A stretch of DNA of 64,000 bases. Source: Candidatus Saccharimonadales bacterium. GTDB taxonomy: Bacteria > Patescibacteriota > Saccharimonadia > Saccharimonadales > UBA4665. The translations under genes were made by a program, and so were the position numbers. The first letter of the stretch is position 1. Every line of letters starts with the position of its first letter. Location: positions 42,302 through 106,301 of the forward strand of contig DATIIY010000003.1 in NCBI GenBank assembly GCA_035479135.1. The letters run 5' to 3'. Shown in pieces: positions 41,547 to 57,096 of the stretch. Under the pieces are notes generated by a model. The model saw only the letters and a list, made by a program, of their open reading frames with translations. It did no database searches and was not told where the DNA came from.

Positions 41547-42230
41547 TTAGATATTATTTATGAATTCCGGCTGGGCAAAAACCACGGCTTCGACTCGCTT
41601 AGCCCCAGCCGATCTTAAAACTAAGGCGGCTGCTTCTAGTGTGGCTCCGGTAGTTATAACATCGTCTACCAGCAAAACGTGGCGGCCGCGCAATTGTTCC
41701 GGCCGTTTAAGTCGAAACACTGCTGATAATTGACTTAGCCTGGCTTGCCTGGACAAGCCGTGCTGATGCATTTGACCTACGCGGCGAAGTCGATCGAAGT
41801 AAGGCGCCCTGGTCTGCAAGGATAATTCACGGGCAATCAGCCGGGCTTGATCATAGCCGCGCTGACGGATACGGCTGGTGGCCGTGGGCACCGGAATTAT
41901 CACGCTTCGATCAGCAACTCTAACTTGTTGGGCCATGTATTTTGCCATAATCCTGGCCGAAGACTGTGCGCCACCTAATTTTAGTTTCCAAATCAGCCCC
42001 TTAGCCACGCTGCCATAAACAGCCGCGACCTTAACGCTGTAGAGTAAGCTGGTTTGTCGACATTTTTCACAAGTTAATGAATCGTTCATTAATTTGCGGC
42101 AGCGGTAACACCTATCGGGAATACCCTGTAAACTACCGGCACATAACCCACATAACAGATTACCTTCGGCTCCGCAGGCAAGGCAATCATGTGGCGCGAC
42201 GATTCCCAGTAAACTATCTAAAAGACTCAT
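41547..42230 (-). CDS. comFC: ComF family protein (phosphoribosyltransferase domain, ComFC-like)
   Basis: N-terminal Cys4 pattern (CLACG...CGLC...CYRC...CEKC) and C-terminal PRT motif VLLVDDVITTGATL. The start is trimmed to MSLLDSLLGIV (the track ORF extends to 42275). Confidence 0.8.
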   Translation of the reverse strand: MSLLDSLLGIVAPHDCLACGAEGNLLCGLCAGSLQGIPDRCYRCRKLMNDSLTCEKCRQTSLLYSVKVAAVYGSVAKGLIWKLKLGGAQSSARIMAKYMAQQVRVADRSVIIPVPTATSRIRQRGYDQARLIARELSLQTRAPYFDRLRRVGQMHQHGLSRQARLSQLSAVFRLKRPEQLRGRHVLLVDDVITTGATLEAAALVLRSAGAKRVEAVVFAQPEFINNI

Positions 42231-42417
42231 GTTGTGTTTAATGTGTTGTAAATATGTACCCCACGCATTGCACACCGTTCATCGCCTAAGCTATACTGCT
42301 ACTAACATAAAAATGCAAGATTTTTAATCTCTTTCCTCACTTTGGCTACTCCAGCGATAGTGATAGCGATTCGAAAACCGGCCCACAGCAATAATTTAGT
42401 GGAGGGTAACAGCTAGC

Positions 42418-42897
42418 ATGGCGCGACGCAATCAAGACGATGATCTTTTGCTTGAAGAAGATGAATTAACAGCGGCTTTTCTCGGTGATGAAGGCCCTGC
42501 TCCAGAGGGCGAAGCCGAACCGGCCGGAGCTTCTCCGGTCCCTGAAGATGAATGGGATGAAGACAATAATGTACCCGGCCAGTTGGCCGTCGATGTTTAT
42601 GAAACCAGGGAGAAATTAATCGTTAAGGCCCGCACCGCCGGTGTCAACAAAAGCGACCTGGATGTCAGTATTTCAGATAATCAATTAACAATCCGCGGCA
42701 CGCTTAGCTCCGGCAGCGAAAACGACGTCGAGAACTATTTCCTGCAGGAATGTTACTGGGGTGAATTTTCCCGAACTATCGCCTTACCAGTTCCCGTCAA
42801 AGAAGAAGAAATCGAAGCCGTACTCAAAGACGGCGTGCTAACCATTAGCTTCGGCAAAGTCCAACAGGACACTATCAAGAAGATCCAAGTCCTCTAG
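42418..42897 (+). CDS. Hsp20/alpha-crystallin family small heat-shock protein
   Basis: 159 aa. The alpha-crystallin domain carries DVYETREKLIVKA..GV, FSRTIALP and DGVLTI. Confidence 0.85.
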   Translation: MARRNQDDDLLLEEDELTAAFLGDEGPAPEGEAEPAGASPVPEDEWDEDNNVPGQLAVDVYETREKLIVKARTAGVNKSDLDVSISDNQLTIRGTLSSGSENDVENYFLQECYWGEFSRTIALPVPVKEEEIEAVLKDGVLTISFGKVQQDTIKKIQVL

Positions 42898-42916: not shown

Positions 42917-43378
42917 TTAGCCGCCTATGGTACCGTTTTGAACATTGTTCGATTGGTTAAGCACAAAGTGCACGATGAGTTGAGCCAGAGCTACTATAAT
43001 TAGACCAATTATGGCATAAATAAGTGTATTCTTAGCGCTGCCAACACGGCCAGAATCACCACCGGAAGTAATGTAGCGGAAGCCACCATAAATTATCATG
43101 ATTACAGAAACCGCGCCAACTATGATAGAAAATATCTTAACTATATTCTGGGCGATCTTACCGATGCTACTACTATCTACATTTGTTGAGTCACAGGTAA
43201 CACTGCCAGGTTGACCAGATGCTTGACTGGCACCATCAGCCACGTTATTTGCAATATTACTAGTACAACCTTCCGCGTTCGCTACACCAAGAGTTAGCGG
43301 AACAAGTCCTGGCGCCAATAGCGAAAGCATCATTATTAGTGGCAGAAAATAGCTTTTTATTTTTTGTGTCATATTCAA
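42917..43378 (-). CDS. T4SS pilin-like protein (VirB2/TrbC-like), paralog 1 of 6
   Basis: 153 aa. Signal/anchor, a variable region with 2 Cys, then a conserved TM hairpin (IIYGGFRYITSGGDSGRVGSAKNTLIYAIIGLIIVALAQLIV). Confidence 0.7.
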   Translation of the reverse strand: MNMTQKIKSYFLPLIMMLSLLAPGLVPLTLGVANAEGCTSNIANNVADGASQASGQPGSVTCDSTNVDSSSIGKIAQNIVKIFSIIVGAVSVIMIIYGGFRYITSGGDSGRVGSAKNTLIYAIIGLIIVALAQLIVHFVLNQSNNVQNGTIGG

Positions 43379-43459
43379 ACCTTTCTTTTCGATATCTGTC
43401 AGTTTATATCTTATTTATACTACATGTTTATGTTTAAAATCAAGATCTGCACATGTATG

Positions 43460-43930
43460 CTAATTCTTTACACATTTATTGGCTGATGAATCAAAATGTT
43501 GATTAACGCCACAATTATTTGTAACATTTGTTGACTGTGTAAGGATGAATGTAACCAGTAATTGAGCCAAAACTGCTATTGCCAGCCCAATTAATGCATA
43601 TATCAGAGTATTTTTGGCTGAACTTATCCTAGCAGAATCTCCACCGGATGTAATATATCTTAAACCGCTGTAGATTATCATAATTATTGCTGCCGCCCCG
43701 GTTATTATGCTTAGAATTTTCACTGCAGCACTAATTGTATTCGTAACACCGCTCCCATTACAGGTGTCGCCCGTTTCGCCAACACCGTTTAAAACTTGGT
43801 CTTTAGACGTTCCGGATGTTCCTCCACAAGCATAAGCCGATATTGGAGAGCTTAAATTGAGTCCAACTAGAGCTGTTAATAACAAGGCAGTTGGGATAAA
43901 AATTCGACGAAGATTATTTAAAAATTTCAT
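43460..43930 (-). CDS. T4SS pilin-like protein, paralog 2 of 6
   Basis: The start is trimmed to MKFLNNLRR, preceded by TAGGAG. Core IIYSGLRYITSGGDSARISSAKNTLIYALIGLAIAVLAQLLV. It has an extra C-terminal tail with a Cys pair. Confidence 0.7.
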   Translation of the reverse strand: MKFLNNLRRIFIPTALLLTALVGLNLSSPISAYACGGTSGTSKDQVLNGVGETGDTCNGSGVTNTISAAVKILSIITGAAAIIMIIYSGLRYITSGGDSARISSAKNTLIYALIGLAIAVLAQLLVTFILTQSTNVTNNCGVNQHFDSSANKCVKN

Positions 43931-43937
43931 ATAACTC

Positions 43938-44333
43938 CTAAAGTTTATTAACAACATAAGTTATTAAGCTCGACGCTAAAGCGATCACAAGTAGTCCAAT
44001 TATTGCCCCTGTTAGAGTGCTTTTGGCAGTGCCCACAGCATTGCTGTCCCCACCAGAAGTTATATATCGCAAGCCACTAATTATTATTAAAATCACTGCT
44101 GCTGCACCGGCGATATAGGCCACAATTTGGGTAATATCGTATAGCAAGCCGTTACTGCCGGAGATGGGGTCACTGGAGGTTTTGTCCTGGCAGACTGCAG
44201 AGGTTTTGTTAGTGCTGTCGCTACAATTAATTCCCGAGGGACCTCCAAAAGGGTCAAAAGCTAAAGCAGTTGTTGGCGTAGCAATAAAACATAGGCAAAG
44301 TAACATAATTGAACATAATAGTCGTCGTATCAT
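43938..44333 (-). CDS. T4SS pilin-like protein, paralog 3 of 6
   Basis: 131 aa. Signal peptide ending ALA-FD, 2 Cys, and core IISGLRYITSGGDSNAVGTAKSTLTGAIIGLLVIALA. Confidence 0.7.
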   Translation of the reverse strand: MIRRLLCSIMLLCLCFIATPTTALAFDPFGGPSGINCSDSTNKTSAVCQDKTSSDPISGSNGLLYDITQIVAYIAGAAAVILIIISGLRYITSGGDSNAVGTAKSTLTGAIIGLLVIALASSLITYVVNKL

Positions 44334-44626
44334 CCTACACGACTCCCCACGAAGAAAACTATTGATTCAGCTGCAATGGCGATAGTCAATCCAACTAATG
44401 AATAAACAATGCCATTCTTAGCCTTAGAAATCTTCTGCGGATCACCGGCAGCCACAATGTAACGCAGGCCTGATATGGTAATCATCAGAAGTGCCAAGGC
44501 ACCGGCAACTCCGAAAGCAATACCCAAAACCGTTGGAATAAATGAACCACCGCTAGTTACGTCAGGGTGTGGTAGACTGCGGCCACTGATTTCAGTACTA
44601 ACGATGGTGTTTATTATTGTTTCCAT
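44330..44626 (-). CDS. T4SS pilin-like protein, paralog 4 of 6
   Basis: 98 aa with no Cys. Core ISGLRYIVAAGDPQKISKAKNGIVYSLVGLTIAIAA. Has a 4-nt overlap with the next gene. Confidence 0.65.
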   Translation of the reverse strand: METIINTIVSTEISGRSLPHPDVTSGGSFIPTVLGIAFGVAGALALLMITISGLRYIVAAGDPQKISKAKNGIVYSLVGLTIAIAAESIVFFVGSRVG

Positions 44627-44627
44627 T

Positions 44628-45032
44628 TTATGACAGTTTATTACCTATAAATGATACTACAGCCACTGAAACCATGGCTATCGCCATCCCAATTAAGGCA
44701 TTTATAACGGTGCCTTGGGCTCTAGCAGTAGCCTCCGGATCACCCTGACTGGCAATGTACTTTATGGCTCCATAAAATACGAAGGCCACGGCCACAATTC
44801 CGGCAATGCGTAGTAAATCATCAACGACAGCCAACAAAATCAGAGGTAAATCACTGCCGCCAGCCGAGATAAAATTAAAGTTGGTATTTATGTTGCAAGC
44901 ATAAGTTACGCCGTTAACTGTTACTCCAAAATCTTTGTCAGGCAAGTAATGATACCAAGTTACCAGACCAAAGAAATCATGCCGACAACCAGCTGGAGCA
45001 GAAGCAAAATATAATAATTGCAGCCAAATCAT
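44628..45032 (-). CDS. T4SS pilin-like protein, paralog 5 of 6
   Basis: 134 aa. FFGLVTWYHYLP motif and core FYGAIKYIASQGDPEATARAQGTVINALIGMAIAMVS. Confidence 0.62.
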   Translation of the reverse strand: MIWLQLLYFASAPAGCRHDFFGLVTWYHYLPDKDFGVTVNGVTYACNINTNFNFISAGGSDLPLILLAVVDDLLRIAGIVAVAFVFYGAIKYIASQGDPEATARAQGTVINALIGMAIAMVSVAVVSFIGNKLS

Positions 45033-45051
45033 AATTTATACCTGCGTTTAT

Positions 45052-45621
45052 TCAATGTAAAAATCCTCCCGGCACTAAGAATTGCAAAAATCCGTATAAC
45101 AATGCGTAAGCGAAGATTGCGATAATCGTACCACTAATTCTATTCTTGGCGGATGAGGCCTTCTGCGGGTCACCTTCAGAAGTCGAAAATTGAATACCGC
45201 CAATAATCAATGAAATTACAGCAATTAAACCAAATATCGCTGTCAACAAATTAATTCCAGGATTAATGTACTTGGCTATCAGATCGCAGCTGTCAGCTGA
45301 GCAGTCGACCGCCGGGTCAGTGCCATCACCAATATCCCAACCTTGCTTACAACTGGTGCGCAAATTCTTATCCGGATAAGCAGAGGTGCTGCAAGCGCTA
45401 GTTTTAGATGTACCGCCAGCTTGGGCTTTCCACCCATGTTCGCAGGCTGCCTCATTGTCACCGCTTAGATTTAGCGGACTGCAAGCATTGCAAGCATTGG
45501 GGCTACCGCTTTTTGAGCAATCGGGGCTGGCAGACACAACTGACAAAGGCGCGATGAAAAACAAAGCCAAAAACAGAATTAAACTGCGTGCAAAATATGG
45601 CTTCAATATTTTTTGTATCAT
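45052..45621 (-). CDS. T4SS pilin-like protein with a Cys-rich ectodomain, paralog 6 of 6
   Basis: 189 aa. Signal peptide, a roughly 95-aa region with 10 Cys, then core IIGGIQFSTSEGDPQKASSAKNRISGTIIAIFAYALL. Confidence 0.62.
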   Translation of the reverse strand: MIQKILKPYFARSLILFLALFFIAPLSVVSASPDCSKSGSPNACNACSPLNLSGDNEAACEHGWKAQAGGTSKTSACSTSAYPDKNLRTSCKQGWDIGDGTDPAVDCSADSCDLIAKYINPGINLLTAIFGLIAVISLIIGGIQFSTSEGDPQKASSAKNRISGTIIAIFAYALLYGFLQFLVPGGFLH

Positions 45622-45707
45622 CTAGTAATGTTTAATTTTACGAATGTCTAAATCTATTATGTGGCTCCATATGCAAAAAAACAAGAGTACCGAAGTCTAA
45701 CCACTTA

Positions 45708-45716
45708 TGGTATATT
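45708..45716 (+). promoter_or_regulatory. candidate extended -10 promoter element for the T4SS operon
   Basis: TGGTATATT (a TGn + TATAAT-like element) ends 30 nt upstream of the ATG at 45746. No good -35. Confidence 0.35.
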
Positions 45717-45745
45717 GGTTAAGGTAATCTTTCAAAGATAAAAAC

Positions 45746-48568
45746 ATGTGGCGTAGACTGATCTACTTATTCCCCGTTGTACTGATCCTTGCTACTATTG
45801 GCGTGAATATTGTCCAGTCACCGAATGCCTTGGCTGCCACAACAGCAACAAGTTATTGCGACTCACAAGGTTTTGCTTCAAAAACTGGTGAGGATTACAA
45901 AGCCTGCCAGCACGGTTTCAACGGCAAAGTAGCTGGCACCAGCCAACAAGCAAGTTGTAAAAATGAAGGCGGTTCTGCCACAAACCAAGGTGATCCCAAG
46001 TATATATGTTATGTAGCTTGGTCGGTCGCAACAGTAGGCAATAAACCCGCACCAGTAGTCCAACCATATAAAAGTCCATCTGCTGCAGCTAAAAAAGCTT
46101 GCACTGGCTCAGACTCCCCAGTTTCAGGTGGAGATGCTGGTACGATTAATGCTTGTGAGCGCGGATATGATGGTGGCAAAAGCGGTAAAACACAGAGCCA
46201 AGCCTGTAGTGTCCTGGTCGGCGAATCAAAAACTACGGGCAATGCTGATGAATGCGGTATAGGTTGGGATCTGGCAACAGGCGCCCCAATTCCGGGTGCC
46301 AGCTCTAGAGGCAGCGGGAGTACTGGCAGTGGTAGCGATGCTTCTGCTGCTGCACCTACATTGGGCTGCGATACCAAGTTTACCAATCCGCTGACCTGGA
46401 TTATTTGTCCCGTTACGGATGTATTAGTACAAATTGTTGGCGCAATTGATAACGCCATTACTAACCAATTAAATATAAAAACAGATGCAATTTTTTGTAC
46501 AGATACTGATACTTGCCAAGCCTACTATTCAGCCTGGCAATCGTTTAGAAATATCGCTCTTGGTCTAATGGCCATCGCTGGTCTTATTATTGTAATTGCC
46601 CAAGCATTAGGTGTGGAGGTACTAGATGCCTACACTATTCGCAAAACATTACCAAGATTGCTAATTGTAGCAGTTGCAATAACGCTCTCATGGCCATTAA
46701 TGAAATTTCTGATTGATCTATCTGATGATTTGGGTTTTGGAGTTAGACATCTTATATATGCGCCATTTTCTCATTTGGGATCTGGACTTAATTTAGACTT
46801 TGGTGGAAATGCCGCCAATATATTCTTCGGTGGTTTGGGTTTTGCGGCAGTAACCGGAGCTGGTGTAGGAGCGGCGGCTTTTACCCTATTAGGCGGGATA
46901 GGTGCGCTTCTAGGTTATGCAGGTACGGCCGCTTTGGCAGTTTTCGTGGCAATCGTTGTGCTGATATTAAGACAAATAATAATAATTTTATTAATGCTTT
47001 TGGCTCCTGTAGCTTTGGTTGCTTACATCTTGCCTAATACTCAAAGGATTTATAGATTATGGGGTGATACTTTTCTGAGAGCACTTCTGATGTTTCCATT
47101 AATCTCAGCTCTAATAGCTACCGGTAGAGTATTTTCAGCTGTAGCAATTCATAATGGAGGGGCATTAAACCAACTGATTGGATTTGCAGCTTATTTTGCG
47201 CCATATTTCTTGATACCCTTGACTTTCAGAATGTCAGGTGCTGCTATTAATGGTGTTGGTAGCTTTGTAAATAGCCGAGCACAAGGTGGTTTCGAAGGAC
47301 TTCGCAAATTCCGCACCACCCGACGGCAGAAAGGCAGAGAACGAATATTGTCAGGCAATCTATTTAATAAGGCGCGAGAGGGTTCATACCGTCAAAAATT
47401 AAATCAGGCTTATCAGTCTGGTGGTTTGGGTTTGGCCAATACTGACCGGATGGGTAGTAACCCAATGAAATGGCGCAGAAATGCTCAACAATTACGCGAA
47501 ACAGCAAACCTGAATAACGCAGATAAGCTATTACAGTCAGAAGAATTTAAACCGTACGTGGGAGATGACGACTTTGCTAAGGCTGCCATGAACAGTGGCG
47601 GTAGCGTTGATAGCTTTAAGCGATACCTCAGAGAAACAGGTAAATTCAGTAACGCTGATATTGAACAAAAGGGTACCGGTTTTGAAATTATGCAGAGGAA
47701 ATTTGGTACACCTGCCCTTGAACAAGGTGCCTTTCAGAGTGCCCTTACAGCTAGCACGTTTCTTGCACCTGGGCAATCAGGCGAATTGCTTGATTATATT
47801 GATAAGCTATCTGGTGGCCGGTCTCAAACCCAAGCACAGCTAATTGCTAAAGCCAAAGACCTTGCTCCAAAAGCTGGCCGTGGAGATGTAGTAGCACCGT
47901 TTAGTGATATGATGGGGCAACTGAAGACAATTGGCGCAGCAACAACCCCTGCAGCCAGGGCAGCAGCTATACGCAATGCCTCCGAATTCCTTGCAGACAC
48001 TAACGAAGATGTAGAAGGTTCTGCCTACTGGTTTACCGGCAAGGGTAGAATGACTGAAGCCGGCATTCCTGCGATTCAACGTAAAATAAAGCGTGCTGCC
48101 AGTAATGTCGCAGCCATTAATCAAAACAACGGCCAACCTATAACAATAACTAGGTTAAACGGAAAGCAAGAAGTGTTGACTGAGGACCAGGCTCATAGAG
48201 AAATGAAACAAGTACTGGCTCAGGTTGCCGGTACATCAGACGTTTTACAGCAGGTATCGCCTGAGAAGCAGCGCCTGTTTGCCGAAGGTGTTCTTTCATG
48301 GCAAATCCCAGGTTTTAAATCTAATGTTATTCAAAATATCGACGACTTTAGTACCGATCCAGAATTTACTGAAACACGTAGCCGCTATGAGAGAAACATG
48401 GCGCAATCGATGCAAAGATCAGCTCAAGCGGAACAAGCAGCAGCACAAGCCGGAGCCAATATGACACCTGCGCAACGAGCTGCGTCAGAAGCTGCAGCGG
48501 CACAGGCAGCGGCAGACGCTGCCAGACAAATGGGCGGCGGTGATCCTAATGTCGGAGGACAACTGTAA
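45746..48568 (+). CDS. extended VirB6/TrbL-like polytopic membrane protein
   Basis: 940 aa. Signal peptide, a roughly 190-aa Cys-rich ectodomain, about 7-8 TM helices (residues about 215-500), and a roughly 440-aa soluble C-terminal extension ending in an Ala/Gln-rich tail. The call rests on architecture and operon position (first gene before PrgI/VirB4). Confidence 0.6.
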   Translation: MWRRLIYLFPVVLILATIGVNIVQSPNALAATTATSYCDSQGFASKTGEDYKACQHGFNGKVAGTSQQASCKNEGGSATNQGDPKYICYVAWSVATVGNKPAPVVQPYKSPSAAAKKACTGSDSPVSGGDAGTINACERGYDGGKSGKTQSQACSVLVGESKTTGNADECGIGWDLATGAPIPGASSRGSGSTGSGSDASAAAPTLGCDTKFTNPLTWIICPVTDVLVQIVGAIDNAITNQLNIKTDAIFCTDTDTCQAYYSAWQSFRNIALGLMAIAGLIIVIAQALGVEVLDAYTIRKTLPRLLIVAVAITLSWPLMKFLIDLSDDLGFGVRHLIYAPFSHLGSGLNLDFGGNAANIFFGGLGFAAVTGAGVGAAAFTLLGGIGALLGYAGTAALAVFVAIVVLILRQIIIILLMLLAPVALVAYILPNTQRIYRLWGDTFLRALLMFPLISALIATGRVFSAVAIHNGGALNQLIGFAAYFAPYFLIPLTFRMSGAAINGVGSFVNSRAQGGFEGLRKFRTTRRQKGRERILSGNLFNKAREGSYRQKLNQAYQSGGLGLANTDRMGSNPMKWRRNAQQLRETANLNNADKLLQSEEFKPYVGDDDFAKAAMNSGGSVDSFKRYLRETGKFSNADIEQKGTGFEIMQRKFGTPALEQGAFQSALTASTFLAPGQSGELLDYIDKLSGGRSQTQAQLIAKAKDLAPKAGRGDVVAPFSDMMGQLKTIGAATTPAARAAAIRNASEFLADTNEDVEGSAYWFTGKGRMTEAGIPAIQRKIKRAASNVAAINQNNGQPITITRLNGKQEVLTEDQAHREMKQVLAQVAGTSDVLQQVSPEKQRLFAEGVLSWQIPGFKSNVIQNIDDFSTDPEFTETRSRYERNMAQSMQRSAQAEQAAAQAGANMTPAQRAASEAAAAQAAADAARQMGGGDPNVGGQL

Positions 48569-48621: not shown

Positions 48622-49881
48622 ATGGAAGCCTCTCCGCCACTTCGTCCAAATCCAAACGCAAATCAAACAGGAAATCATTGGCCAGATGTCTCTGGTACAT
48701 TTAAACCTGTCACGAGAGCATCAGTCAGGTCTATATATATGCCGACTTCACCAGAAGTCGTGGTGCCCGACACGCTTTTACCTGACCCCGTACCTCAAGA
48801 ATTATCGCCAAGTCCAGTGTTGACTGGGGGTACAGTGCCAAAGGTTAGGCCAATATTATTAGATCTTCGAAACAGATTATTACAGCGACGTATTGATAAG
48901 ATTGAAGGAAGTATTGATCAATTAAGCCATCCGTCACAATCAATGCTCGAACATGAAGAAATGGCCCGTCACGTGGGCAGATCTATTTTAACAAGTAAAG
49001 GGTACTGGCCTCACACTGAAAGTAGACGTCCATATACATTGAAGAGAACTATGGCCGCACGGGCGCTCGAAAGCCTAGATGCCAGGCGGCGAAAGAATGT
49101 AGCTAGGGCGCATTCTACTGCCAAGCTATTTAAAGCTAGTGATACCGAACATTTTGTTCCAGATTTTGAAGGCAGCAATCCTCATCCTACTCGATTTGAG
49201 GCTCGCGATACTCGGAGTCACGCTAAAAGTTATAACAAAAATATGCGACAGGCAGCTCGTCGCGACCGAATGTTCGCGAGTATTGTAAGTCCTCGGAGCG
49301 CATATGCTCAACGACTCTTAAGGAAACGCGACAAACTTTCACTTAAGCAGCAAGCCATTGAACATTTGAGAACCGGTAAACCTATCGAACGACAATCAGA
49401 ATTGCCACAAGGCGAACTAATTCAATATGGAAATCCGGATGCTCGTGGCAAAGTATCAGTCAATATTGAATATAGTCAACCCGCAGATGTGAATATTGAT
49501 ATCAGCTCATACATGCGTTCGAGAGGAAAAAGAGCAGAAATAGTTATATATAACGAGGATGGCACGACTTTGTATATTCATGGAAATACATTGTACTCGT
49601 GGAAACGCAATGCTGAGGGTGAAATTATTCAAAATATGCAAGAACTTAGTGATCTACAATCCGAGTTAGGATTTTTGCCCCGACTTAGTGTTGGTAGACC
49701 ATTACGGGTTAGAAACGGCATATCATCGCCAGAATCTCCCATTATTGGTATTGTCGTACATTCAGGCAATATGAACTCGCAGATAGCGATAGAAAAACAC
49801 ATGAGAAGAAAAGCTAACGATCCGCTTGATAGTGCTCGCCGGATTGCCAGACATATTGATAATAGTGAACGCTCAGACTAA
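48622..49881 (+). CDS. hypothetical basic soluble protein within the T4SS operon
   Basis: 419 aa with AAGGTG SD and no TM or signal peptide. The central region is Arg/Lys/His-rich. No family recognised. Confidence 0.5.
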   Translation: MEASPPLRPNPNANQTGNHWPDVSGTFKPVTRASVRSIYMPTSPEVVVPDTLLPDPVPQELSPSPVLTGGTVPKVRPILLDLRNRLLQRRIDKIEGSIDQLSHPSQSMLEHEEMARHVGRSILTSKGYWPHTESRRPYTLKRTMAARALESLDARRRKNVARAHSTAKLFKASDTEHFVPDFEGSNPHPTRFEARDTRSHAKSYNKNMRQAARRDRMFASIVSPRSAYAQRLLRKRDKLSLKQQAIEHLRTGKPIERQSELPQGELIQYGNPDARGKVSVNIEYSQPADVNIDISSYMRSRGKRAEIVIYNEDGTTLYIHGNTLYSWKRNAEGEIIQNMQELSDLQSELGFLPRLSVGRPLRVRNGISSPESPIIGIVVHSGNMNSQIAIEKHMRRKANDPLDSARRIARHIDNSERSD

Positions 49882-49920: not shown

Positions 49921-51030
49921 GTGGCAACATACAAACTGATACAAGATATTGAGGCTGAGGATAAGATTCTGGGGCCGTTGACGCTGAGGCAGTTTATCTT
50001 CGCGATGATTGCCGTATTTTTATTTTATCTATGTTTTCTGGTAACCGTAAAGCATGTTGTTTTCTTACTAATTATATTTTTGCCGCCGGCGCTTTTCTTT
50101 GGGTTTTTTGCCTTACCGTTCGGTAGGGATCAGCCGACAGAGATCTGGTTTCTGGCTAAGTTGAGATTTTGGTTTAAGCCAAGGCGGCGAGTCTGGAATC
50201 AAAGCGGCCTCAAAGAACTGGTCGAAATCAATGTTCCCAAGAAATTGGTACACAATTACACCAACGGATTAAGCCAGCCGGAAGTGGAGAGCCGACTTAA
50301 AATTCTGGCTCAGACGATCGACAGCCGCGGGTGGGCAGTTAAACATGCTGTTAATAACACCTTCCAGCCGCCTGTTATAGTCGGCGGCGGTTCAGATCGT
50401 TTAATAGATATCGGCAGCATGCCACAAGAAGTTCCGGCCGATAATAGTGTTGTTTATAACGATGTTATGGATCCCGGCACCAGCCCAATTGCCCGCCAAT
50501 TCGATTCTATGATTGACGAGTCTGAAAAAACCCGGCGAGAGCAATTGGTGGAGCAGATGGATGGCGCTGTACGCTTACCACAGCGATTGCAGCAAGCCGC
50601 ATCTGGTCCAAGTGCGCCAAGTAGCAATTGGTTTATGCCAACGCCCGGGCCAACTCAGGGCGGGGGTTATACCGCTACACCGCTACCAGCCGCAGAAGTA
50701 GACTCGGCAGCCGAGGCCACCTTAGCAGCCGGGCTTTCACATCAGGCCAATACCCATCGGGCCTTCGGTAATTTGCGCACCTTGCAGCCTCTGTCAACTC
50801 GCAAAGCTTCGACCGTTTCAACTAATAACGGCTCTGTCACCGATGATAATTCAAGCCCTTCAGCGAGCGCGGTAGACCAAACTACACCGATGACAGCCCA
50901 GAGAGACCCTGCTATAATGTATCTGGCCACAAATAATGATTTAAATTTGTCTACTATCGCGCGAGAGGCCAATAAAAACAAGAGCAGTGCAGAAGCGTCT
51001 TCCAACGAGGTCGTAATTCCGCTGCATTAA
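49921..51030 (+). CDS. PrgI family (VirB3-like) membrane protein with a long disordered C-terminal extension
   Basis: 369 aa with a GTG start. The N-terminus (YKLIQDIEAEDKILGPLTLRQFIFAMIAVFLFYL) plus a second TM matches the PrgI-family pattern. The rest is low complexity. Confidence 0.62.
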   Translation: MATYKLIQDIEAEDKILGPLTLRQFIFAMIAVFLFYLCFLVTVKHVVFLLIIFLPPALFFGFFALPFGRDQPTEIWFLAKLRFWFKPRRRVWNQSGLKELVEINVPKKLVHNYTNGLSQPEVESRLKILAQTIDSRGWAVKHAVNNTFQPPVIVGGGSDRLIDIGSMPQEVPADNSVVYNDVMDPGTSPIARQFDSMIDESEKTRREQLVEQMDGAVRLPQRLQQAASGPSAPSSNWFMPTPGPTQGGGYTATPLPAAEVDSAAEATLAAGLSHQANTHRAFGNLRTLQPLSTRKASTVSTNNGSVTDDNSSPSASAVDQTTPMTAQRDPAIMYLATNNDLNLSTIAREANKNKSSAEASSNEVVIPLH

Positions 51031-51082: not shown

Positions 51083-52018
51083 ATGGATCCGTCGAGGCAA
51101 CCGATTCCAAACCAACAAAACCCAAATCAACAGGCTCAGTCTGACGCTTTAAGCTATTCAGCAAGTAATGCTCCGCCGCCGGCGCCGCTAATTCCCAACC
51201 AAATTGTTCCGCCGGTTCAAGACCCTAACGGCGGGCCCACGCCTCTGGCTATGCCCACGTCAGGCCGGATGCCGGCTAAACCCGCGCAGCAGCACCCCAA
51301 CAGCACCCAGAATTCTTTGCAAATCGCCGAAGTTCGTGACGGCATCGTGATAATGAGTGACGGCTCGTTTCGATCAGTCGTGATGGTCAAAAGCATCAAT
51401 TTTGATCTGATGAGCCCGCAGGAACAAGAGGCCGTAGAGTTTAGCTATCAGGGATTTTTGAATTCGCTTTATTTCCCCTTGCAAATTTTTATTCGATCTC
51501 AAAAAGTCGACCTCGCTCCTTACATCGATAAACTAGACAAAATACGAACAGAACACGATAACATGCTGCTGGCGCTACTTATGGAAGATTACATTGCGTT
51601 TATCGGTAATTTGGCGCAGCAGACCAATATTATGGATAAAAAATTCTATCTGGTGGTGCCGTTTTTCCCGGTCGTAGATGCTCAAAAAGCGTTGACTCAA
51701 AGTAAGAATTTCCTGGGCGGCATAGGCGGTTTATTTAACAAAAAAGAAGAACACGTCGTTATTAATGAAGCGGACCTCGAAAATGCTAAAACCGAGCTAC
51801 GCAACCGCGTCCAAGCGGTTTTGGCCGGGTTAATGCAGTCTGGAATTAAGGGCTTGCCGCTGGATACCGAGGAGTTAATCGAGCTATATTACGACACTTA
51901 TAATCCGGACACGGCCACCAGGCAGCAGCTTAAGGATTTCAGCGGTTTGACAGCTGACGTTATCACCAAGGGTGAAGGAGCCGCGCCCCAAGCCCACCTG
52001 AAGGGAGAGCTTCACTAA
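51083..52018 (+). CDS. VirB4 N-terminal-domain-like protein (separate ORF)
   Basis: 311 aa. An 80-aa Pro/Gln-rich leader is followed by IAEVRDGIVIMSDGSFRSVVMVKSINFDLMSPQEQEAVEFSYQGFLNSLYFPLQIFI, which resembles the N-terminus of Gram-positive VirB4/TrsE/PrgJ proteins. The stop overlaps the next start (TAATG). Confidence 0.5.
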   Translation: MDPSRQPIPNQQNPNQQAQSDALSYSASNAPPPAPLIPNQIVPPVQDPNGGPTPLAMPTSGRMPAKPAQQHPNSTQNSLQIAEVRDGIVIMSDGSFRSVVMVKSINFDLMSPQEQEAVEFSYQGFLNSLYFPLQIFIRSQKVDLAPYIDKLDKIRTEHDNMLLALLMEDYIAFIGNLAQQTNIMDKKFYLVVPFFPVVDAQKALTQSKNFLGGIGGLFNKKEEHVVINEADLENAKTELRNRVQAVLAGLMQSGIKGLPLDTEELIELYYDTYNPDTATRQQLKDFSGLTADVITKGEGAAPQAHLKGELH

Positions 52019-53964
52019 TGCTGGGCCGTAAGAAGCAGCCGCCTCCCGACCCGGTAGCGATTGCCAGAGCCCAGAGAGCCCGGGAAGAAATGGAGGTTCA
52101 GGCCGCCTTCCGCAAAGGCATCACTGCACTGCGGGATTTCATAGCGCCAAGTTCACTGGAGTTCAGTAACACTCATTTCCAGATTGGTACCCGTTACGCC
52201 AGGACCTATTATGTTTACGGCTATCCCCGACAGCTTTACACCGGCTGGCTGAGTGGACTGGTTAATCTGGATGAAATTGTCGATATGAGCATGTACGTTT
52301 ATCCGGTCGAAAGTCAGGTGGTGCTGGAAAACCTGCGGAAGAAAGTTACGCAACTTGAAGCCGGTATTCAGATCGAGGCCGAGAAAGGCCGAGTCCGAGA
52401 TCCGGGCAAAGAAGCGGCCATCATGGATGCCGAAGAAATGCGCGACAAACTGCAGGTTGGCGAAGAACGGTTCTTTAGATTCGGATTGTACTTCACATTG
52501 TATGCCGGCAGTCTTGACGAGTTGGAATTTATTTCTCACAAAGTTGAATCAATGCTCGGTCAGCAGCTGGTTTATAGTAAGGCCGCCACCTCTCAGCAAG
52601 AACAGGGGCTCAACAGCACTATTCCTCAATTAGTCGACCAGTTGCAGATTCGCCGCAACATGAGTACCGGGGCACTGAGCACCAGTTTTCCGTTTACCAG
52701 TGCGGATCTGAGTCAGGAAACCGGCATCTTGTATGGCATAAATATGCACAACTCCGGCTTGGTGATTTTCGATCGTTTCTCTCTGGAAAACGGTAATTCG
52801 GTGGTCTTCGCTAAATCCGGGGCCGGCAAAAGTTTTGCTGTTAAATTAGAAGCTCTGCGCTCCATGATGTTCGGCACCGAGATATTTATCATTGACCCTG
52901 AAAACGAGTATCAGCGGATGTGCGATGCGGTAGGCGGAGCCTATGTTCGCCTGAGCCTGAATTCGGCAACCAGAATAAATCCGTTTGACTTGCCCAAAGT
53001 CGTCGATACCGAGGAAGCTGACAACGCTCTGAGGAGCAACCTGATAACGCTGCACGGTTTACTACGATTAATGATGGGCGGCGCCCAGATCCAAATGGCC
53101 GGCGCCGGCGGTGTCATGGCACCGCCGTTAGCTCCCTCAGAAGAAGCTGATCTGGACGCCGCCCTGATCGAAACCTATGCCAAAGCCGGAATAACCAACG
53201 ATCCGCTAACTCACACCGGCACCCCACCGGCCATAAACGATCTTTATGACGTTTTGCTGCACATGGGTGGCACCGGGCCACAACTGGCCCAGCGATTGCG
53301 CAAGTACACTACTGGCACCTTCGCCGGAATTTTCTCGCAGCAAAGCAATATCGATATAAATAATCCGATGGTAGTTTTCAACTTGCGTGACCTGGAGGAT
53401 GAACTACGGCCAGTAGCCATGTACATCGTACTTAATTACGTCTGGAACAAAACCAAAACCGATCAGAAACGTCGCCTAATGATAGTCGATGAAGCCTGGC
53501 AACTTATGAAGTACGAAGATTCCGCCAATTTCCTGTTTTCGCTGGCCAAGCGGGCCCGCAAATACAACCTTGGGATCACCACGGTAACTCAGGATGTCGA
53601 GGATTTCATGGGCTCGCGGATGGGACGGGCAATTGTCGCCAACGCTTCCATGCAGTTTCTGATGAAACAGTCGCCTTCAGCCGTTGACGTTTTAACGGAT
53701 GTGTTCAAATTAACAGAGGAGGAGCGTAAACGGCTAAGTCAGTTCCCGGTCGGTCAGGGACTGTTTTTCGCCGGCCAAAACCACGTTCACATTCAAGTTG
53801 TGGCCAGTCCTACCGAAACCGGCCTGATCACTACCAACCCGGAAGAGGTTCAACAGATAGCGGCGGCCGAAGCCAGCGGCGAATTTGACCAGGCGCAGGG
53901 CACAATCGATTTAAACAATCGGCTAACGCCCGGCAGCACCGGCAATACGGCCAGTAGCGTATAA
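52018..53964 (+). CDS. virB4: VirB4-family type IV secretion ATPase
   Basis: 648 aa. Walker A FAKSGAGKSFAVK, Walker B RRLMIVDEAWQLM, and GITTVTQDVEDF. The upstream part (FIAPSSLEFSNTHFQIGTRYARTYYVYGYPRQ) is typical of the VirB4 middle region. Confidence 0.9.
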   Translation: MLGRKKQPPPDPVAIARAQRAREEMEVQAAFRKGITALRDFIAPSSLEFSNTHFQIGTRYARTYYVYGYPRQLYTGWLSGLVNLDEIVDMSMYVYPVESQVVLENLRKKVTQLEAGIQIEAEKGRVRDPGKEAAIMDAEEMRDKLQVGEERFFRFGLYFTLYAGSLDELEFISHKVESMLGQQLVYSKAATSQQEQGLNSTIPQLVDQLQIRRNMSTGALSTSFPFTSADLSQETGILYGINMHNSGLVIFDRFSLENGNSVVFAKSGAGKSFAVKLEALRSMMFGTEIFIIDPENEYQRMCDAVGGAYVRLSLNSATRINPFDLPKVVDTEEADNALRSNLITLHGLLRLMMGGAQIQMAGAGGVMAPPLAPSEEADLDAALIETYAKAGITNDPLTHTGTPPAINDLYDVLLHMGGTGPQLAQRLRKYTTGTFAGIFSQQSNIDINNPMVVFNLRDLEDELRPVAMYIVLNYVWNKTKTDQKRRLMIVDEAWQLMKYEDSANFLFSLAKRARKYNLGITTVTQDVEDFMGSRMGRAIVANASMQFLMKQSPSAVDVLTDVFKLTEEERKRLSQFPVGQGLFFAGQNHVHIQVVASPTETGLITTNPEEVQQIAAAEASGEFDQAQGTIDLNNRLTPGSTGNTASSV

Positions 53965-54003: not shown

Positions 54004-57000
54004 ATGGCAACACCCGCCAATCAAAGAGACCCGGTCTATGATGATGACCGATCGCCAGAACCGGTTAGACAACCCGATCTACGCCGGCTAGAAGGCATCG
54101 GAGGTAACACTGCCGGCGGTGGCACACGGGGTGCCAGCAGCAGCACGGGATCACAAGGAGGTGGCGCCTCTAATTCCACCAAAGCTTCGGCAGGCGGAGC
54201 CAGCGATCAAACCGGCGACACATCGGCCAAGCTAAATAACGCTGAAGAATCTACAGGCGACAACGATGACGAAGATGACGACAGTGACCGTGTTGGCAAA
54301 GGCTACACAGGCAACAACAATTCCACCAGCAGAGGCCGCGTCCGATTCCGGCTCACCCGAAAAAAAGCCGCCGTAGGCATCGGCTCCGTAGCTATAATTT
54401 CCGGGGTTATTGGCTTTTTTTCTATATCTACCGGCCCGCTGGAATTTATCCATATCGCTCAACTATTAGACCGCTTCCACTTCTCCAGCCAACAAGACGC
54501 CGAAGACGGCAGGTTAACTAAAATGGCCCGCTACCTGCATGACACCAATAAGCCGCAAAACACGCGGCTTGGACTTGTAGGCAATTCTGTAGCATCCAAG
54601 CTTGAAACTAAAATTAAAGACGCGACCGGATTAGAGCCGGAATTCAATGAAAAGTCTGGTAGATTCGTTGGTTATAATGGCGACCGGGCTCATGAAAACT
54701 TTAAAGGCAAGTCGGAAGCTGAGATAAAAAGTCAGATAGCAAACCAGACCGGTATTGATGGGATTAAAGTTTCTTTTTCTTCGGATGGCAAATCGTTCAG
54801 CTATAATCCTGACGCAGGTATACGCAATCCCGTTACTGCTTATAGAGTCCAGACTCGCACTGCGCGGGCCCAGCTGAGCGAGGCTGGATTATCCAAAGTT
54901 TCCCAACATGTCGGAAGCAGAATTCTAAGAACTCGAGCTGGGTGGACATTTCACCCCATCAAAAAGGCAGATGCAGCCCTTCAAGCCAAAGCTATCGAAA
55001 AGGGTGCCAAAGCTTATGAGCAATTCAAAGAAAAGCTAAAGCAGCAGTTTAACAAAGACGAAACGGCCTATATAGAAAACGGAGCAGTTGAAAAACCCGG
55101 CGGAGATCCCACTCGACAAAAAGAAACCGATACTAGTGGTAAAACCGTGGACACACCTGGATCGCAAGATACACAAGCGGGTGTAAATGGTGTTAAATCC
55201 GACACTCAAGGTGAAGACCCGGCAAATCCGCAAACTGTGGAGGATGCCAAAACCAGCCTAAAAGCCAAGGTTGGAGCCGGGGGTGCCAGTTTAATTGGGG
55301 TGATCTGCGTAATGAACAGCATTAATCATGAGATGCCGCAATTACGACAAGAAAAAGTTATGCTGCCGATGATGAGAATGGCTGGTGAAGCCATAAGTGT
55401 TGGCAGTCAAGTCCAGAGTGGACAAGACATTAGTGCTCTTCAACTTGGATTTTACAAGGACCAACTTGATGGTACAGATAGTACTGGCAAGACCTCCACT
55501 TGGAATCAAGCCCAAAGTATTCAAGCCGAGTTAGGGCAACCGCAATCCGGTACGGATGTACCAAAAGAAGGTCAAGTATTTAACGGAGATGTGCCTTTTG
55601 GCTTTTTGCAAGGTTCGATAGTAGATTCGGTTTGTGGTATTTTGGGAAGCACTTTTGGCCAGATTTTCTCGATTGTCACTGGACCAATCAGCTTCATTGC
55701 TTCGGCTATTACTGTCGGCCCAGCTACAAGCATTCTGGCAAACTGGTTATCCGGAGCCCCCATAAGTCCTTTGGCTGCCGGCGCAGACCGAGGAAATTAT
55801 ATTAATTACGGTGCGCGTTTGTCGGCCAATCAACAATATGCGTCAGCTGGTGGTGTACCGATGAACTCCAGCGATGAAGGGCAAGTGACTGCGATAGATA
55901 ACAGCTTCGATATGGCCGATTTCCAATCTCATGGTCTGGCTTATAGGCTTTTTAATACAAAAGATAGTCGTAGTTTAGTATCGCATTTGATTGATAGTGA
56001 GAGCGCTTCCGGACCAGTAGATAATATAGCAACTATGGTTCAGCACTTTGGTAGTATCTTCGGAGCTGCCTCAAGAGTGCCGGCCAGTCTATTATCGGGG
56101 GTCACTCATGCTGCTGGAACGACTTACAATTGGCATGGTCTCAATAAAATCGGTTTCACAGCAAGTGAATTAGGCAATCCTAGCGTCGATAACCCTTTTG
56201 ACAATGCCTGCCTTGTAGCAGGCGGTAACTGTAAATTAGCAAATGGTACGCTTGAACATACGGGTATTCTTGACGGCTCAAACGGTCAGCACTATATTGA
56301 TCTTGCCCACACTTGTTTCAATGCTACTATCACCAACGACCCCTCCACAGGTTGGCAAATCAATAATGCCAGCTCACTAAATCAAGAAGACGATAACTAT
56401 CGATCGCATGCTATTGAGTGCAGCAGCGATAGCGACGGGAACTGGTTACGTGTACGTTTCTGGTTACTCGACACAGCAACCATAGAAGGCTACGACTGTT
56501 ATCAAGGCGATACAGACACATCCGACCAATCTTGTAACGATGTCGGCGTCACACAGTCCAGTACAGCATCCGTATCAGCCGGGTCAAGCGATATCAGCGC
56601 TTATCAAAACCCTCTTCGGGATGTGATGAAAAACGGCAGCTTATTCCCACGACGCATAGATGAAGGCGTCGATTACGGGGGTCATGGCCCGATTTATGCC
56701 ATGGGCAACGGCGTAGTCACTTTTGCCGGTACTGGAGAATGGTTTGCTGCTTACGGCCAGTCGGTTGTTTATACATTAAGTGATGGCCCGGCTGCTGGAA
56801 AAAGCGTTTATTTCTCAGAAAGCTGTACTCCGACCGTCAAGGCCGGTGATCACGTTACTCCTTCAACCGTAATATGTAATATGAATGGAGATAACAGTCC
56901 TTGGATTGAAACAGGATGGGCGGTTGGAGGTACAGCCAATCAGGATATCCCATCGGCTCATATAGGTTACAATGAGTGCGCAACAGTATATGGAGCTAAC

Positions 57001-57096
57001 TATTCTGACCTTCTCAAAAAACTAGGTGCTCCCGGCGGAAAAATCGAGTGTGGCGGACCTGACGAGACACTGCCGGCAGGATGGCCGAAATGGTGA
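54004..57096 (+). CDS. large T4SS-associated membrane protein with a C-terminal degenerate LytM/M23-like domain
   Basis: 1030 aa. A 110-aa Gly/Ser/Asp-rich N-terminus, a TM (AAVGIGSVAIISGVIGFFSI), and further hydrophobic segments near residues 430 and 540-580. The C-terminal stretch IDEGVDYGGHGPIYAMGNGVVTFAG...VKAGDHVTPSTVI resembles the M23 barrel but lacks the HxxxD/HxH metal ligands. Confidence 0.5.
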   Translation: MATPANQRDPVYDDDRSPEPVRQPDLRRLEGIGGNTAGGGTRGASSSTGSQGGGASNSTKASAGGASDQTGDTSAKLNNAEESTGDNDDEDDDSDRVGKGYTGNNNSTSRGRVRFRLTRKKAAVGIGSVAIISGVIGFFSISTGPLEFIHIAQLLDRFHFSSQQDAEDGRLTKMARYLHDTNKPQNTRLGLVGNSVASKLETKIKDATGLEPEFNEKSGRFVGYNGDRAHENFKGKSEAEIKSQIANQTGIDGIKVSFSSDGKSFSYNPDAGIRNPVTAYRVQTRTARAQLSEAGLSKVSQHVGSRILRTRAGWTFHPIKKADAALQAKAIEKGAKAYEQFKEKLKQQFNKDETAYIENGAVEKPGGDPTRQKETDTSGKTVDTPGSQDTQAGVNGVKSDTQGEDPANPQTVEDAKTSLKAKVGAGGASLIGVICVMNSINHEMPQLRQEKVMLPMMRMAGEAISVGSQVQSGQDISALQLGFYKDQLDGTDSTGKTSTWNQAQSIQAELGQPQSGTDVPKEGQVFNGDVPFGFLQGSIVDSVCGILGSTFGQIFSIVTGPISFIASAITVGPATSILANWLSGAPISPLAAGADRGNYINYGARLSANQQYASAGGVPMNSSDEGQVTAIDNSFDMADFQSHGLAYRLFNTKDSRSLVSHLIDSESASGPVDNIATMVQHFGSIFGAASRVPASLLSGVTHAAGTTYNWHGLNKIGFTASELGNPSVDNPFDNACLVAGGNCKLANGTLEHTGILDGSNGQHYIDLAHTCFNATITNDPSTGWQINNASSLNQEDDNYRSHAIECSSDSDGNWLRVRFWLLDTATIEGYDCYQGDTDTSDQSCNDVGVTQSSTASVSAGSSDISAYQNPLRDVMKNGSLFPRRIDEGVDYGGHGPIYAMGNGVVTFAGTGEWFAAYGQSVVYTLSDGPAAGKSVYFSESCTPTVKAGDHVTPSTVICNMNGDNSPWIETGWAVGGTANQDIPSAHIGYNECATVYGANYSDLLKKLGAPGGKIECGGPDETLPAGWPKW

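What the first reader, a model, noticed from the sequence alone, without database searches (positions are those of the whole stretch)
45276..46271. The same Cys-rich repeat module decorates both a pilin and the VirB6-like protein, encoded head-to-head
Pilin paralog 6 and the N-terminal ectodomain of the 940-aa VirB6-like protein are divergently transcribed across a 124-nt spacer. Both carry the same short disulfide-type module. The pilin has AACEHGWKAQAGGTSKTSAC followed by SCKQGWDIGDG. The VirB6-like protein has KACQHGFNGKVAGTSQQASC, NACERGYDGGKSGKTQSQAC and then ECGIGWDLATG. The pattern C-x-[HRQ]-G-[FWY]-x(2-3)-[GK]-x(1-2)-G-x-[ST]-x(3-4)-C followed by C-x-x-GWD-[IL]-x-x-G is too specific to be compositional. 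A shared exposed module on the filament subunit and the channel component suggests a common ligand, such as a host envelope, or a docking interaction between the two.
Basis: seen in the sequence. Interest (0 to 1): 0.6.

Follow-up and report, generated by a model that had tools for sequence, protein, structure and literature searches.

The report
Shared cysteine module on pilin and VirB6
An ultrasmall, probably host-dependent bacterium carries the same small four-cysteine, three-helix surface module on two neighbouring parts of its type IV secretion machine (one pilin and the VirB6-like platform); the module is real, rare and undescribed, which makes these two proteins candidates for the parts that face the host, but what it binds is unknown.

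Summary
The unit is about 55 residues with four invariant Cys: C-x(8-18)-C-x-x-G-[FYW]-x(9-14)-C-x(9-20)-C-x-x-[GA]-[WY].

- **Copies here:** one in the promoter-proximal T4SS pilin (45052-45621, -) and two complete copies in the N-terminal ectodomain of the 940-aa VirB6-like protein (45746-48568, +).
- **Homology:** HMMs built from only one protein class of other genomes find the other class here (E 6e-8 and 3e-12). Nothing else in the genome scores.
- **Rarity:** a profile search of 1.84 billion proteins gave 46 hits. About 34 are these pilins or VirB6-like proteins, about 8 are tandem-repeat lipoproteins of three Solirubrobacterales species, and 4 are spurious.
- **Spread:** 12 of 401 Saccharimonadales genomes carry it, always in a promoter-proximal pilin or the VirB6-like protein.
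- **Fold:** AlphaFold predicts a three-helix unit (pLDDT 84) with no PDB or Pfam match. The genome encodes VKOR and a DsbA-like protein.

The two proteins carry the module together more often than expected. But close relatives pair the same pilin module with unrelated VirB6 heads, which argues against obligatory docking. A module tree shows repeated exchange between the two genes.

Best reading: a swappable, probably disulfide-stapled brick of variable surface heads. Ligand unknown.

The parts
45052..45621 (-). Promoter-proximal ('sixth') T4SS pilin, 189 aa: signal peptide, Cys-rich head, two-helix pilin core
   Evidence: PF18895 T4SS_pilin, 34.6 bits (cut-off 26.6), aa 118-181. Orthologues occupy the same position in about 38 of 40 related loci.
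45529..45621 (-). Pilin signal peptide (aa 1-31, ...PLSVVSA|S)
   Evidence: Read from the sequence. The cleavage site is inferred, not predicted by a tool.
45322..45486 (-). Pilin copy of the four-Cys module (aa 46-100; Cys 47, 60, 77, 91)
   Evidence: Module HMM domain E 3e-15. Found by an HMM built from VirB6-class modules only, E 6.3e-8.
45055..45291 (-). Pilin core (aa 111-189), preceded by the conserved neck DPAVDCSADSCDL
   Evidence: The neck motif DPA..C....CD[LF] is shared by most orthologues.
45622..45745 (.). 124-nt divergent spacer between the two start codons
   Evidence: One weak sigma-70-like site on the - strand, no more than in shuffles. No DNA-level inverted repeat between the two genes.
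45746..48568 (+). Extended VirB6-like protein, 940 aa: signal or anchor sequence, Cys-rich head, polytopic core (aa about 196-560), long hydrophilic tail
   Evidence: The core is conserved in 54 of 61 relatives. Orthologues carry PF19590 TrbL_3 in precomputed hits. The AlphaFold core model's top 7 PDB matches are all TrwI/VirB6 chains.
45854..46039 (+). VirB6-like module copy 1 (aa 37-98; Cys 38, 54, 71, 88)
   Evidence: Module HMM domain E 2.3e-15. Orthologous to module 1 of P0084.
46097..46285 (+). VirB6-like module copy 2 (aa 118-180; Cys 119, 137, 154, 170)
   Evidence: Module HMM domain E 4e-17. It is 78% identical to module 2 of P0084. It was the sequence modelled: three helices, pLDDT 83.8.
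46367..46411 (+). Conserved junction motif C-x9-W-x2-C-P (aa 208-222, GCDTKFTNPLTWIICP), where the variable head meets the conserved core
   Evidence: W218 and C221 are invariant; C208 and P222 are conserved in at least 90% of 26 relatives.

Best explanation
The shared element is an independently folding extracellular domain of about 55 residues. It is predicted to form three short helices and has four invariant cysteines, probably forming two disulfides. It belongs to no described family.

In this Saccharimonadales genome it forms part of the variable 'heads' of two neighbouring, divergently transcribed T4SS components. There is one copy between the signal peptide and the two-helix core of the promoter-proximal VirB2-type pilin. 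There are two copies at the N-terminus of an extended VirB6-like platform protein.

Shown here:
- The copies are homologous.
- The family is rare and almost confined to these two protein families in two Saccharimonadales families.
- The copy number varies (1-4).
- On a module tree, pilin and VirB6 copies are interleaved, so modules have moved between the two genes several times.
- The one clade outside the T4SS is a set of Solirubrobacterales lipoproteins.

Inferred:
- Both heads protrude from the cell surface of this monoderm.
- The module is a disulfide-stapled building brick of those exposed, fast-changing heads.
- Its most likely role is contact with the partner (host) cell envelope, rather than an obligatory pilin-to-VirB6 docking.
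- The two genes draw on a common pool of small Cys-stapled head modules. A second module type is also found in both families.
For: - **Presence and significance:**
- **Four invariant Cys plus Gly** in 80 instances.
- **Rarity and distribution:** 46 hits in 1.84e9 proteins. These are 20 VirB6-like proteins plus 2 N-terminal VirB6-like fragments, 12 pilins, about 8 lipoprotein sequences and 4 spurious hits.
- **Within the order:** 12 of 401 genomes, two families, always in a proximal pilin or the VirB6-like protein.
- **Variable heads on a conserved core and a conserved gene layout:**
- **Tree:** the lipoprotein clade has 99/99 support. A pilin clade contains the third module of the VirB6-like proteins P0084 and P0088. 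The class labels need 5-6 changes on the tree.
- **Fold:** pLDDT 83.8, pTM 0.72, three helices. No PDB match at E below 3. No Pfam or NCBIfam hit on the heads.
- **Disulfide machinery in the genome:** VKOR E 3e-42 and Thioredoxin_4/DsbA-like E 5.8e-25. Cys counts are even: 8 in the pilin head, and 8 plus a conserved pair in the VirB6 head.
- **Second shared module type:** an HMM built from pilins only hits the VirB6-like protein of L079 at E 5e-4.
- **Machine:** the T4SS, its six-pilin array and VirB6 are essential for epibiotic growth in S. epibionticum, and their function is unknown (PMC12102498, PMC12857230, PMC11665869).
Against: - No ligand, localisation or expression data exist.
- The module occurs in only about 3% of genomes of the order, so it cannot be a general requirement of the machine.
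- The head could be removed during pilin maturation; VirB2-type pilins have long cleaved leaders.
- The module tree rests on about 60 columns, and many forks are unresolved.
- The VirB6 label rests on weak evidence: fold match E 0.03 with TM-scores 0.38-0.48, precomputed Pfam hits and gene context. My own Pfam scans gave TrbL E 0.67 and no PF19590 hit on this gene.
Confidence: 0.6

Rival explanations
1. Docking: the copies on the pilin and on the VirB6-like platform bind each other. This would seat the decorated pilin on the platform, for example as the first or tip subunit, replacing the missing VirB5.
For: The two genes are adjacent and divergently transcribed in nearly all relatives. The two proteins carry the module together more often than independence predicts: 3 genomes observed against 0.14 expected, Fisher p 1.8e-4 over 401 genomes. 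In the R388 machine VirB6 is the platform on which pilins assemble (PMC9259494, cited from its abstract and my own knowledge).
Against: Orthologous pilins with the module sit beside VirB6-like proteins with unrelated, Cys-poor or beta-type heads in L090, L091 and L093. VirB6-like proteins with the module sit beside pilins without it in G289 and G175. The p value falls to 0.03-0.06 if only the clades that have the module are counted. The Solirubrobacterales lipoproteins carry the module without any T4SS.
Confidence: 0.12
2. Generic structural brick: the module is only a stable, disulfide-stapled spacer that lifts or stiffens extracytoplasmic segments and has no ligand of its own.
For: It is small and helical. 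It repeats in tandem with variable copy number (1-4). It occurs in unrelated lipoproteins. The conserved positions are Cys, Gly and aromatic residues, which are likely core residues.
Against: Its extreme rarity and its near restriction to two proteins of one machine are not what a generic spacer would show. Module 2 is 78% identical between two genomes whose VirB6 cores are about 53% identical overall, which suggests constraint on surface residues too.
Confidence: 0.22
3. Leader or propeptide: the Cys-rich stretch of the pilin is part of a long pro-region removed at maturation, so the module is never displayed on a filament.
For: VirB2/TraA-type pilins have long N-terminal leaders that are cleaved (established knowledge). 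The conserved neck DPA..C....CD[LF] just before the pilin core could mark a processing site.
Against: A normal signal peptide already precedes the module. The module is a confidently predicted fold with invariant Cys. The same module sits in VirB6-like proteins and lipoproteins, where no such processing is expected.
Confidence: 0.04
4. Chance or compositional resemblance of two Cys/Gly/Ser-rich secreted segments.
For: Pairwise identity is only 29-32% over 44-56 residues.
Against: Class-exclusive HMMs cross-detect the other protein at E 6e-8 and 3e-12, with nothing else in the genome below E 0.5. There are four invariant Cys and one Gly over 80 instances.
Confidence: 0.02

Closest known systems
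VirB2-like pilin arrays of Patescibacteria T4SS (Pfam PF18895 T4SS_pilin; the six-pilin essential array of Ca. Southlakia epibionticum ML1; PMC12102498, PMC12857230)
   Same: Six tandem, sequence-divergent VirB2-type pilins next to virB6, prgI/virB3 and virB4. Same order of bacteria and same gene layout.
   Different: The papers describe the arrays and their variability. In the passages my term searches returned, they do not mention a defined Cys module in the proximal pilin, nor that the same module sits on the VirB6-like protein.
Extended VirB6 proteins (VirB6 with large extra hydrophilic domains, e.g. Rickettsiales; reviewed in PMC12857230)
   Same: A polytopic VirB6-type core with large added hydrophilic parts whose role is unknown.
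   Different: Here the addition studied is an N-terminal, Sec-exported, hypervariable Cys-rich head built of repeats that are also found on a pilin. According to the review, the known extended VirB6 proteins carry central or C-proximal domains.
TrwI/VirB6 - TrwJ/VirB5 stalk of the R388 T4SS (PDB 7O3V, 8RT9)
   Same: The core model's best structural matches are the TrwI/VirB6 chains. VirB6 is the platform under the pilus.
   Different: The match is weak (E 0.03, TM-scores 0.38-0.48). I did not see a VirB5 homologue in the Pfam and NCBIfam scans of this locus. TrwI has no Cys-rich head.
Variable multi-copy VirB2 and VirB6 paralogues of Anaplasma and Bartonella T4SS (PMC3556328; cited in PMC12102498)
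   Same: Tandem, diverged surface-exposed T4SS subunits that are thought to vary host contact.
   Different: Those vary whole paralogues in diderm intracellular pathogens. Here a discrete small domain is shared and exchanged between a pilin and VirB6 in a monoderm epibiont.

Membership tests
T4SS_pilin (PF18895), VirB2-type pilin | Match to the family model above the curated cut-off | tested here: met
   34.6 bits against a cut-off of 26.6, aa 118-181. NCBIfam Mbov_0395 pilin-like: 31.6 bits, below its cut-off of 40.
T4SS_pilin (PF18895), VirB2-type pilin | Signal peptide followed by two hydrophobic helices joined by a short charged loop; gene inside a T4SS locus | tested here: met
   Sequence read. 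Neighbours are PrgI, a VirB4-like ATPase and cell-wall hydrolases.
T4SS_pilin (PF18895), VirB2-type pilin | Polymerises into a filament | not testable with these tools
   No experimental data. No pilus has been seen in this lineage, as far as the papers I read state.
VirB6 / TrbL (PF04610, PF19590 TrbL_3) | Match to a family model above the cut-off | tested here: inconclusive
   My own scans gave TrbL E 0.67, and PF19590.4 did not hit this gene. Precomputed tables list PF19590 for this protein. They list it without a weak mark, meaning E of 1e-5 or lower, for orthologues in L090-L092.
VirB6 / TrbL (PF04610, PF19590 TrbL_3) | Polytopic helical core with the VirB6 fold | tested here: inconclusive
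   The AlphaFold model of aa 196-620 has pLDDT 73.9. Its top 7 PDB matches are all TrwI/VirB6 chains of R388, at probability 0.77-1.00, but with E 0.03-0.6 and TM-scores 0.36-0.48.
VirB6 / TrbL (PF04610, PF19590 TrbL_3) | Encoded with virB3 and virB4 in one locus | tested here: met
   PrgI lies at 49921-51030. The VirB4-like genes lie at 51083-53964.
New four-Cys three-helix head module (no accession) | C-x(8-18)-C-x-x-G-[FYW]-x(9-14)-C-x(9-20)-C-x-x-[GA]-[WY], with four invariant Cys | tested here: met
   All three window copies fit the pattern. Across 80 aligned instances the four Cys are invariant and the Gly is conserved in at least 90%.
New four-Cys three-helix head module (no accession) | The cysteines form intradomain disulfides | not testable with these tools
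   The model has three helices, but coordinates are not returned. Indirect support: the location is extracytoplasmic, Cys numbers are even, and VKOR plus a DsbA-like protein are present.
New four-Cys three-helix head module (no accession) | Absent from described families and solved folds | tested here: met
   No Pfam or NCBIfam hit on the heads. The best PDB fold match has E 3.1.

The most novel reading that the evidence does not exclude
The module is the host-recognition element of this essential but unexplained T4SS. Its single clade outside the T4SS, the tandem-repeat surface lipoproteins of soil Solirubrobacterales (Actinomycetota), would then record gene exchange between epibiont and host. 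The lipoproteins would point to Solirubrobacterales as hosts of these soil Saccharimonadales. They might act as host-made decoys that occupy whatever the epibiont's pilin and VirB6 heads bind.
Probability: 0.08. Interest if true: 0.8.

Novelty: new variant of a known kind. Interest (0 to 1): 0.5.

Why it matters
The T4SS of Saccharibacteria is essential for growth on the host, yet its role is called completely unknown (PMC11665869). No adhesin or VirB5-type tip protein has been found for it.

This finding defines a small, expressible domain that marks the exposed heads of both a pilin and the VirB6-like platform, and it shows that the two genes exchange such modules. That gives concrete objects for binding, localisation and swap experiments. 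It also suggests that the platform protein itself reaches the cell surface in these monoderm cells. The Solirubrobacterales link offers a possible handle on host identity for uncultured soil lineages.

Tried and rejected
1. **Invertible-segment idea.** The two genes lie head to head, so their modules are inverted repeats and could swap N-termini by recombination. No DNA-level inverted repeat longer than 17 nt was found. The similarity is at the protein level only, so this was rejected for the present genome.
2. **General rule that pilin and VirB6 heads match within a genome.** BLASTP of 41 VirB6 heads against all pilin heads gave a same-genome hit only for the window. Rejected as a rule.
3. 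**Sequence-profile search of the VirB6 core against PDB.** It returned only weak influenza HA2 matches (E about 0.005) over a hydrophilic helical stretch. I treat these as spurious.
4. **PF19590 search in the window's own genome.** It did not hit the gene. It gave a weak hit elsewhere on contig C3.
5. **The search for related loci with whole lipoproteins (A2).** It was repeated with the module alignment A3.
6. **Profile hits judged spurious.** P0087, P0096, P0117 and P0122 show only part of the Cys pattern, or are beta-type repeats.
Full report
**1. What is there**

The window is part of an 851-kb, 42% G+C genome in 8 contigs. Names on homologues place it in Candidatus Saccharimonadales.

The locus layout is as follows:
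- 42917-45621 (-): six tandem genes, all matching PF18895 T4SS_pilin.
- 45746-48568 (+): a 940-aa polytopic protein, after a 124-nt spacer.
- 48622-49881: a 419-aa protein with no family match.
- 49921-51030: PrgI/VirB3.
- 51083-53964: a VirB4-like ATPase in two ORFs.
- 54004-57096: a 1030-aa protein.
- 57081-58844: a lysozyme plus CHAP wall hydrolase.

This is the Patescibacteria T4SS described in PMC12102498 and PMC12857230. Its pilin array and virB6 are essential in S. epibionticum, and its function is unknown (PMC11665869).

**2. The observation**

It is about 55 residues with four cysteines: [YF]C-x(8-18)-C-x-x-G-[FYW]-x(9-14)-C-x(9-20)-C-x-x-[GA]-[WY].

- The pilin has one copy, at aa 46-100.
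- The VirB6-like protein has two complete copies, at aa 37-98 and aa 118-180.

Both proteins start with a signal-peptide-like segment, so the modules should be extracytoplasmic. This is read from the sequence and is an inference.

Cys numbers are even. The pilin head has 8. The VirB6 head has 8, plus a conserved pair in the junction motif C-x9-W-x2-C-P.

**3. Is it more than chance?**

BLASTP with compositional adjustment gives E 3e-5 and 2e-4 for the pilin head against the two VirB6 copies.

The stronger test leaves one protein class out of the model. Each HMM was searched against the 7513 six-frame ORFs of this genome.

| HMM built only from | Finds the VirB6-like protein | Finds the pilin |
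|---|---|---|
| VirB6-class modules of other genomes | E 3.6e-18 | E 6.3e-8 |
| Pilin modules of other genomes | E 3e-12 | E 4e-9 |
| Solirubrobacterales lipoproteins | E 5.6e-8 | E 3e-3 |

In all three searches the next ORF has E above 0.5. The three copies are therefore homologous, and nothing else in the genome carries the module.

**4. How widespread?**

A 57-position profile of 19 instances (A1) was searched against 1.84 billion representative proteins. It found only 46 at E of 0.001 or lower. I classified them with my own pilin-core and VirB6-core models and by reading them:
- 20 VirB6-like proteins, plus 2 N-terminal VirB6-like proteins.
- 12 pilins.
- 6 lipobox proteins made of 2-3 tandem modules, plus 2 fragments of the same kind.
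- 4 spurious hits.

In 401 genomes sampled across the order, 12 have the module, in two families. Every hit lies in a promoter-proximal pilin or in the VirB6-like protein.

The lipoproteins come from three Solirubrobacterales (Actinomycetota) species:
- In L087 the 251-aa gene (5416-6171) has three near-identical repeats. It lies between an RHS/YD-repeat protein and an integrase.
- 0 of 200 other genomes of that order have the module.
- The genes have the G+C content of their genomes.

No Pfam or NCBIfam model matches the heads or the lipoprotein.

**5. Context in relatives**

The VirB6-like core (aa about 196-560) is found in 54 of 61 relatives. The alignments start near residue 180-200 in most of them, so the head is not conserved.

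In about 38 of 40 fetched loci, 6-7 pilin genes lie head to head with the VirB6-like gene. The proximal pilin usually carries the longest head. Both heads differ completely between genera. They are Cys-rich helical modules in some and beta-type domains in others.

**6. Co-variation**

| Situation | Where seen |
|---|---|
| Both proteins carry the module | G000, G015, G404; the 121-kb contig with P0084 (3 copies) and P0008; more weakly L092 |
| Pilin only | G355, G323, G277, G247, G301 |
| VirB6-like only | G289, G419, G175, G386 |

Over the 401 genomes this is 3 joint cases against 0.14 expected (Fisher p 1.8e-4). The value falls to 0.007-0.06 if the reference set is limited to the clades that have the module, and the sequences are not independent.

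Close orthologues of the window's pilin that keep the module lie beside VirB6-like proteins with unrelated heads. These are L090 and L091 and L093, which holds P0098, 59% identical to the window's pilin. The association is therefore real but loose. An obligatory module-to-module fit is unlikely.

**7. Exchange between the genes**

On a maximum-likelihood tree of 51 modules:
- The lipoprotein copies form one clade (99/99).
- VirB6 copies 1 and 2 each group with their positional counterparts in relatives.
- The third copy of P0084 and P0088 falls inside the pilin-type clade, next to the window's pilin and P0098 (92/89).
- One pilin (P0111) groups with VirB6 copy 1.
- The class labels need 5-6 changes, and starred branches force at least 2.

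The tree has few columns, so the details are uncertain. The interleaving still shows that modules moved between the two genes.

There is no DNA-level repeat between the genes now.

A second four-Cys module type has the form C...C-x-x-Y...D-x-D-K-A...C-x-K-Y-G...K-L-K...C-x-x-Y. An HMM built from pilins only also hits the VirB6-like head of L079, at E 5e-4 among 3112 ORFs. The two genes appear to draw on a shared pool of head modules.

**8. Structure**

AlphaFold2 on VirB6 copy 2 with 80 aligned instances gives pLDDT 83.8 and pTM 0.72. It predicts three helices, at residues 14-28, 33-40 and 50-61. Cys 2, 3 and 4 lie in helices 1, 2 and 3, and Cys 1 lies in the N-terminal arm.

Foldseek finds no PDB match better than E 3.1. 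Coordinates are not returned, so Cys-Cys distances could not be measured.

The genome encodes VKOR (E 3e-42) and a DsbA-like thioredoxin (E 5.8e-25), so extracytoplasmic disulfide formation is plausible.

**9. Is the 940-aa protein VirB6-like?**

- My Pfam scan gave only TrbL at E 0.67, and PF19590 did not hit the gene in my search.
- Precomputed tables list PF19590 TrbL_3 for it and for its orthologues.
- An AlphaFold model of the core (pLDDT 73.9) has TrwI/VirB6 chains of the R388 stalk as its top seven PDB matches. These have probability 0.77-1.00, E 0.03-0.6 and TM-scores 0.36-0.48.

Together with the gene context, the label is reasonable but not proven.

**10. Reading**

Shown: a rare, undescribed, homologous four-Cys module sits on the exported heads of the proximal pilin and the VirB6-like protein. 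Its copy number varies, and it has moved between the two genes.

Inferred: the module is a disulfide-stapled brick of variable, surface-exposed heads, and these heads most likely face the host envelope.

The docking idea is weakened by the mismatched pairs in relatives. A purely structural role cannot be excluded.

Earlier notes of this scan on other Patescibacteria describe modular Cys-rich heads on VirB2-type pilins. The point added here is that the VirB6-like platform carries the same kind of head.

**11. Limits**

Noticed in passing
L087:5416-6171 (also L088:5395-6168, L089:5860-6513): Solirubrobacterales (Actinomycetota) lipobox proteins consist of 2-3 tandem copies of the same module. 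In L087 the three repeats are near-identical, and the gene lies between a 1357-aa RHS/YD-repeat protein and an excisionase-like gene plus an integrase. The module is absent from 200 other genomes of that order.
   Followed up: partly
L079:1913-3160; pilins P0012, P0022, P0024, P0051, P0054; L081:289-1020: A second four-Cys head module (C...C-x-x-Y...D-x-D-K-A...C-x-K-Y-G...K-L-K...C-x-x-Y) occurs in proximal pilins of several genomes and, at E 5e-4, in one VirB6-like head.
   Followed up: partly
window 46367-46411: A nearly invariant motif C-x9-W-x2-C-P (GCDTKFTNPLTWIICP) marks the border between the variable head and the conserved VirB6-like core in 26 relatives. It may be a disulfide-closed loop.
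   Followed up: no
L031, L073 and L082 (VirB6-like heads of G017, G355, G301): A third, unrelated Cys-rich head type with repeated '...LGCS..MF...' units recurs in VirB6-like proteins of different families. A beta-type head ('W.D...I.F.G..Y.D.N.YD') recurs in L038, L051, L055, L058 and L070.
   Followed up: no
window 51083-53964: The 311-aa ORF before the 648-aa VirB4-like ATPase matches the N-terminal parts of TrsD and VirB4 models weakly (E 7e-6 to 4e-4). The VirB4 therefore seems to be split into two ORFs.
   Followed up: no
window 45052-45114 region and orthologues: Almost all orthologues of the proximal pilin share a neck, DPA..C....CD[LF], just before the pilin core, whatever head they carry. 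It may be a disulfide-closed hinge or a processing site.
   Followed up: no
window 42418-42897 and 41547-42275: The HSP20 and phosphoribosyltransferase (ComF-like) genes that flank the far end of the pilin array are syntenic in relatives (L090-L092). The T4SS locus is therefore chromosomal and stable, not a mobile island.
   Followed up: no
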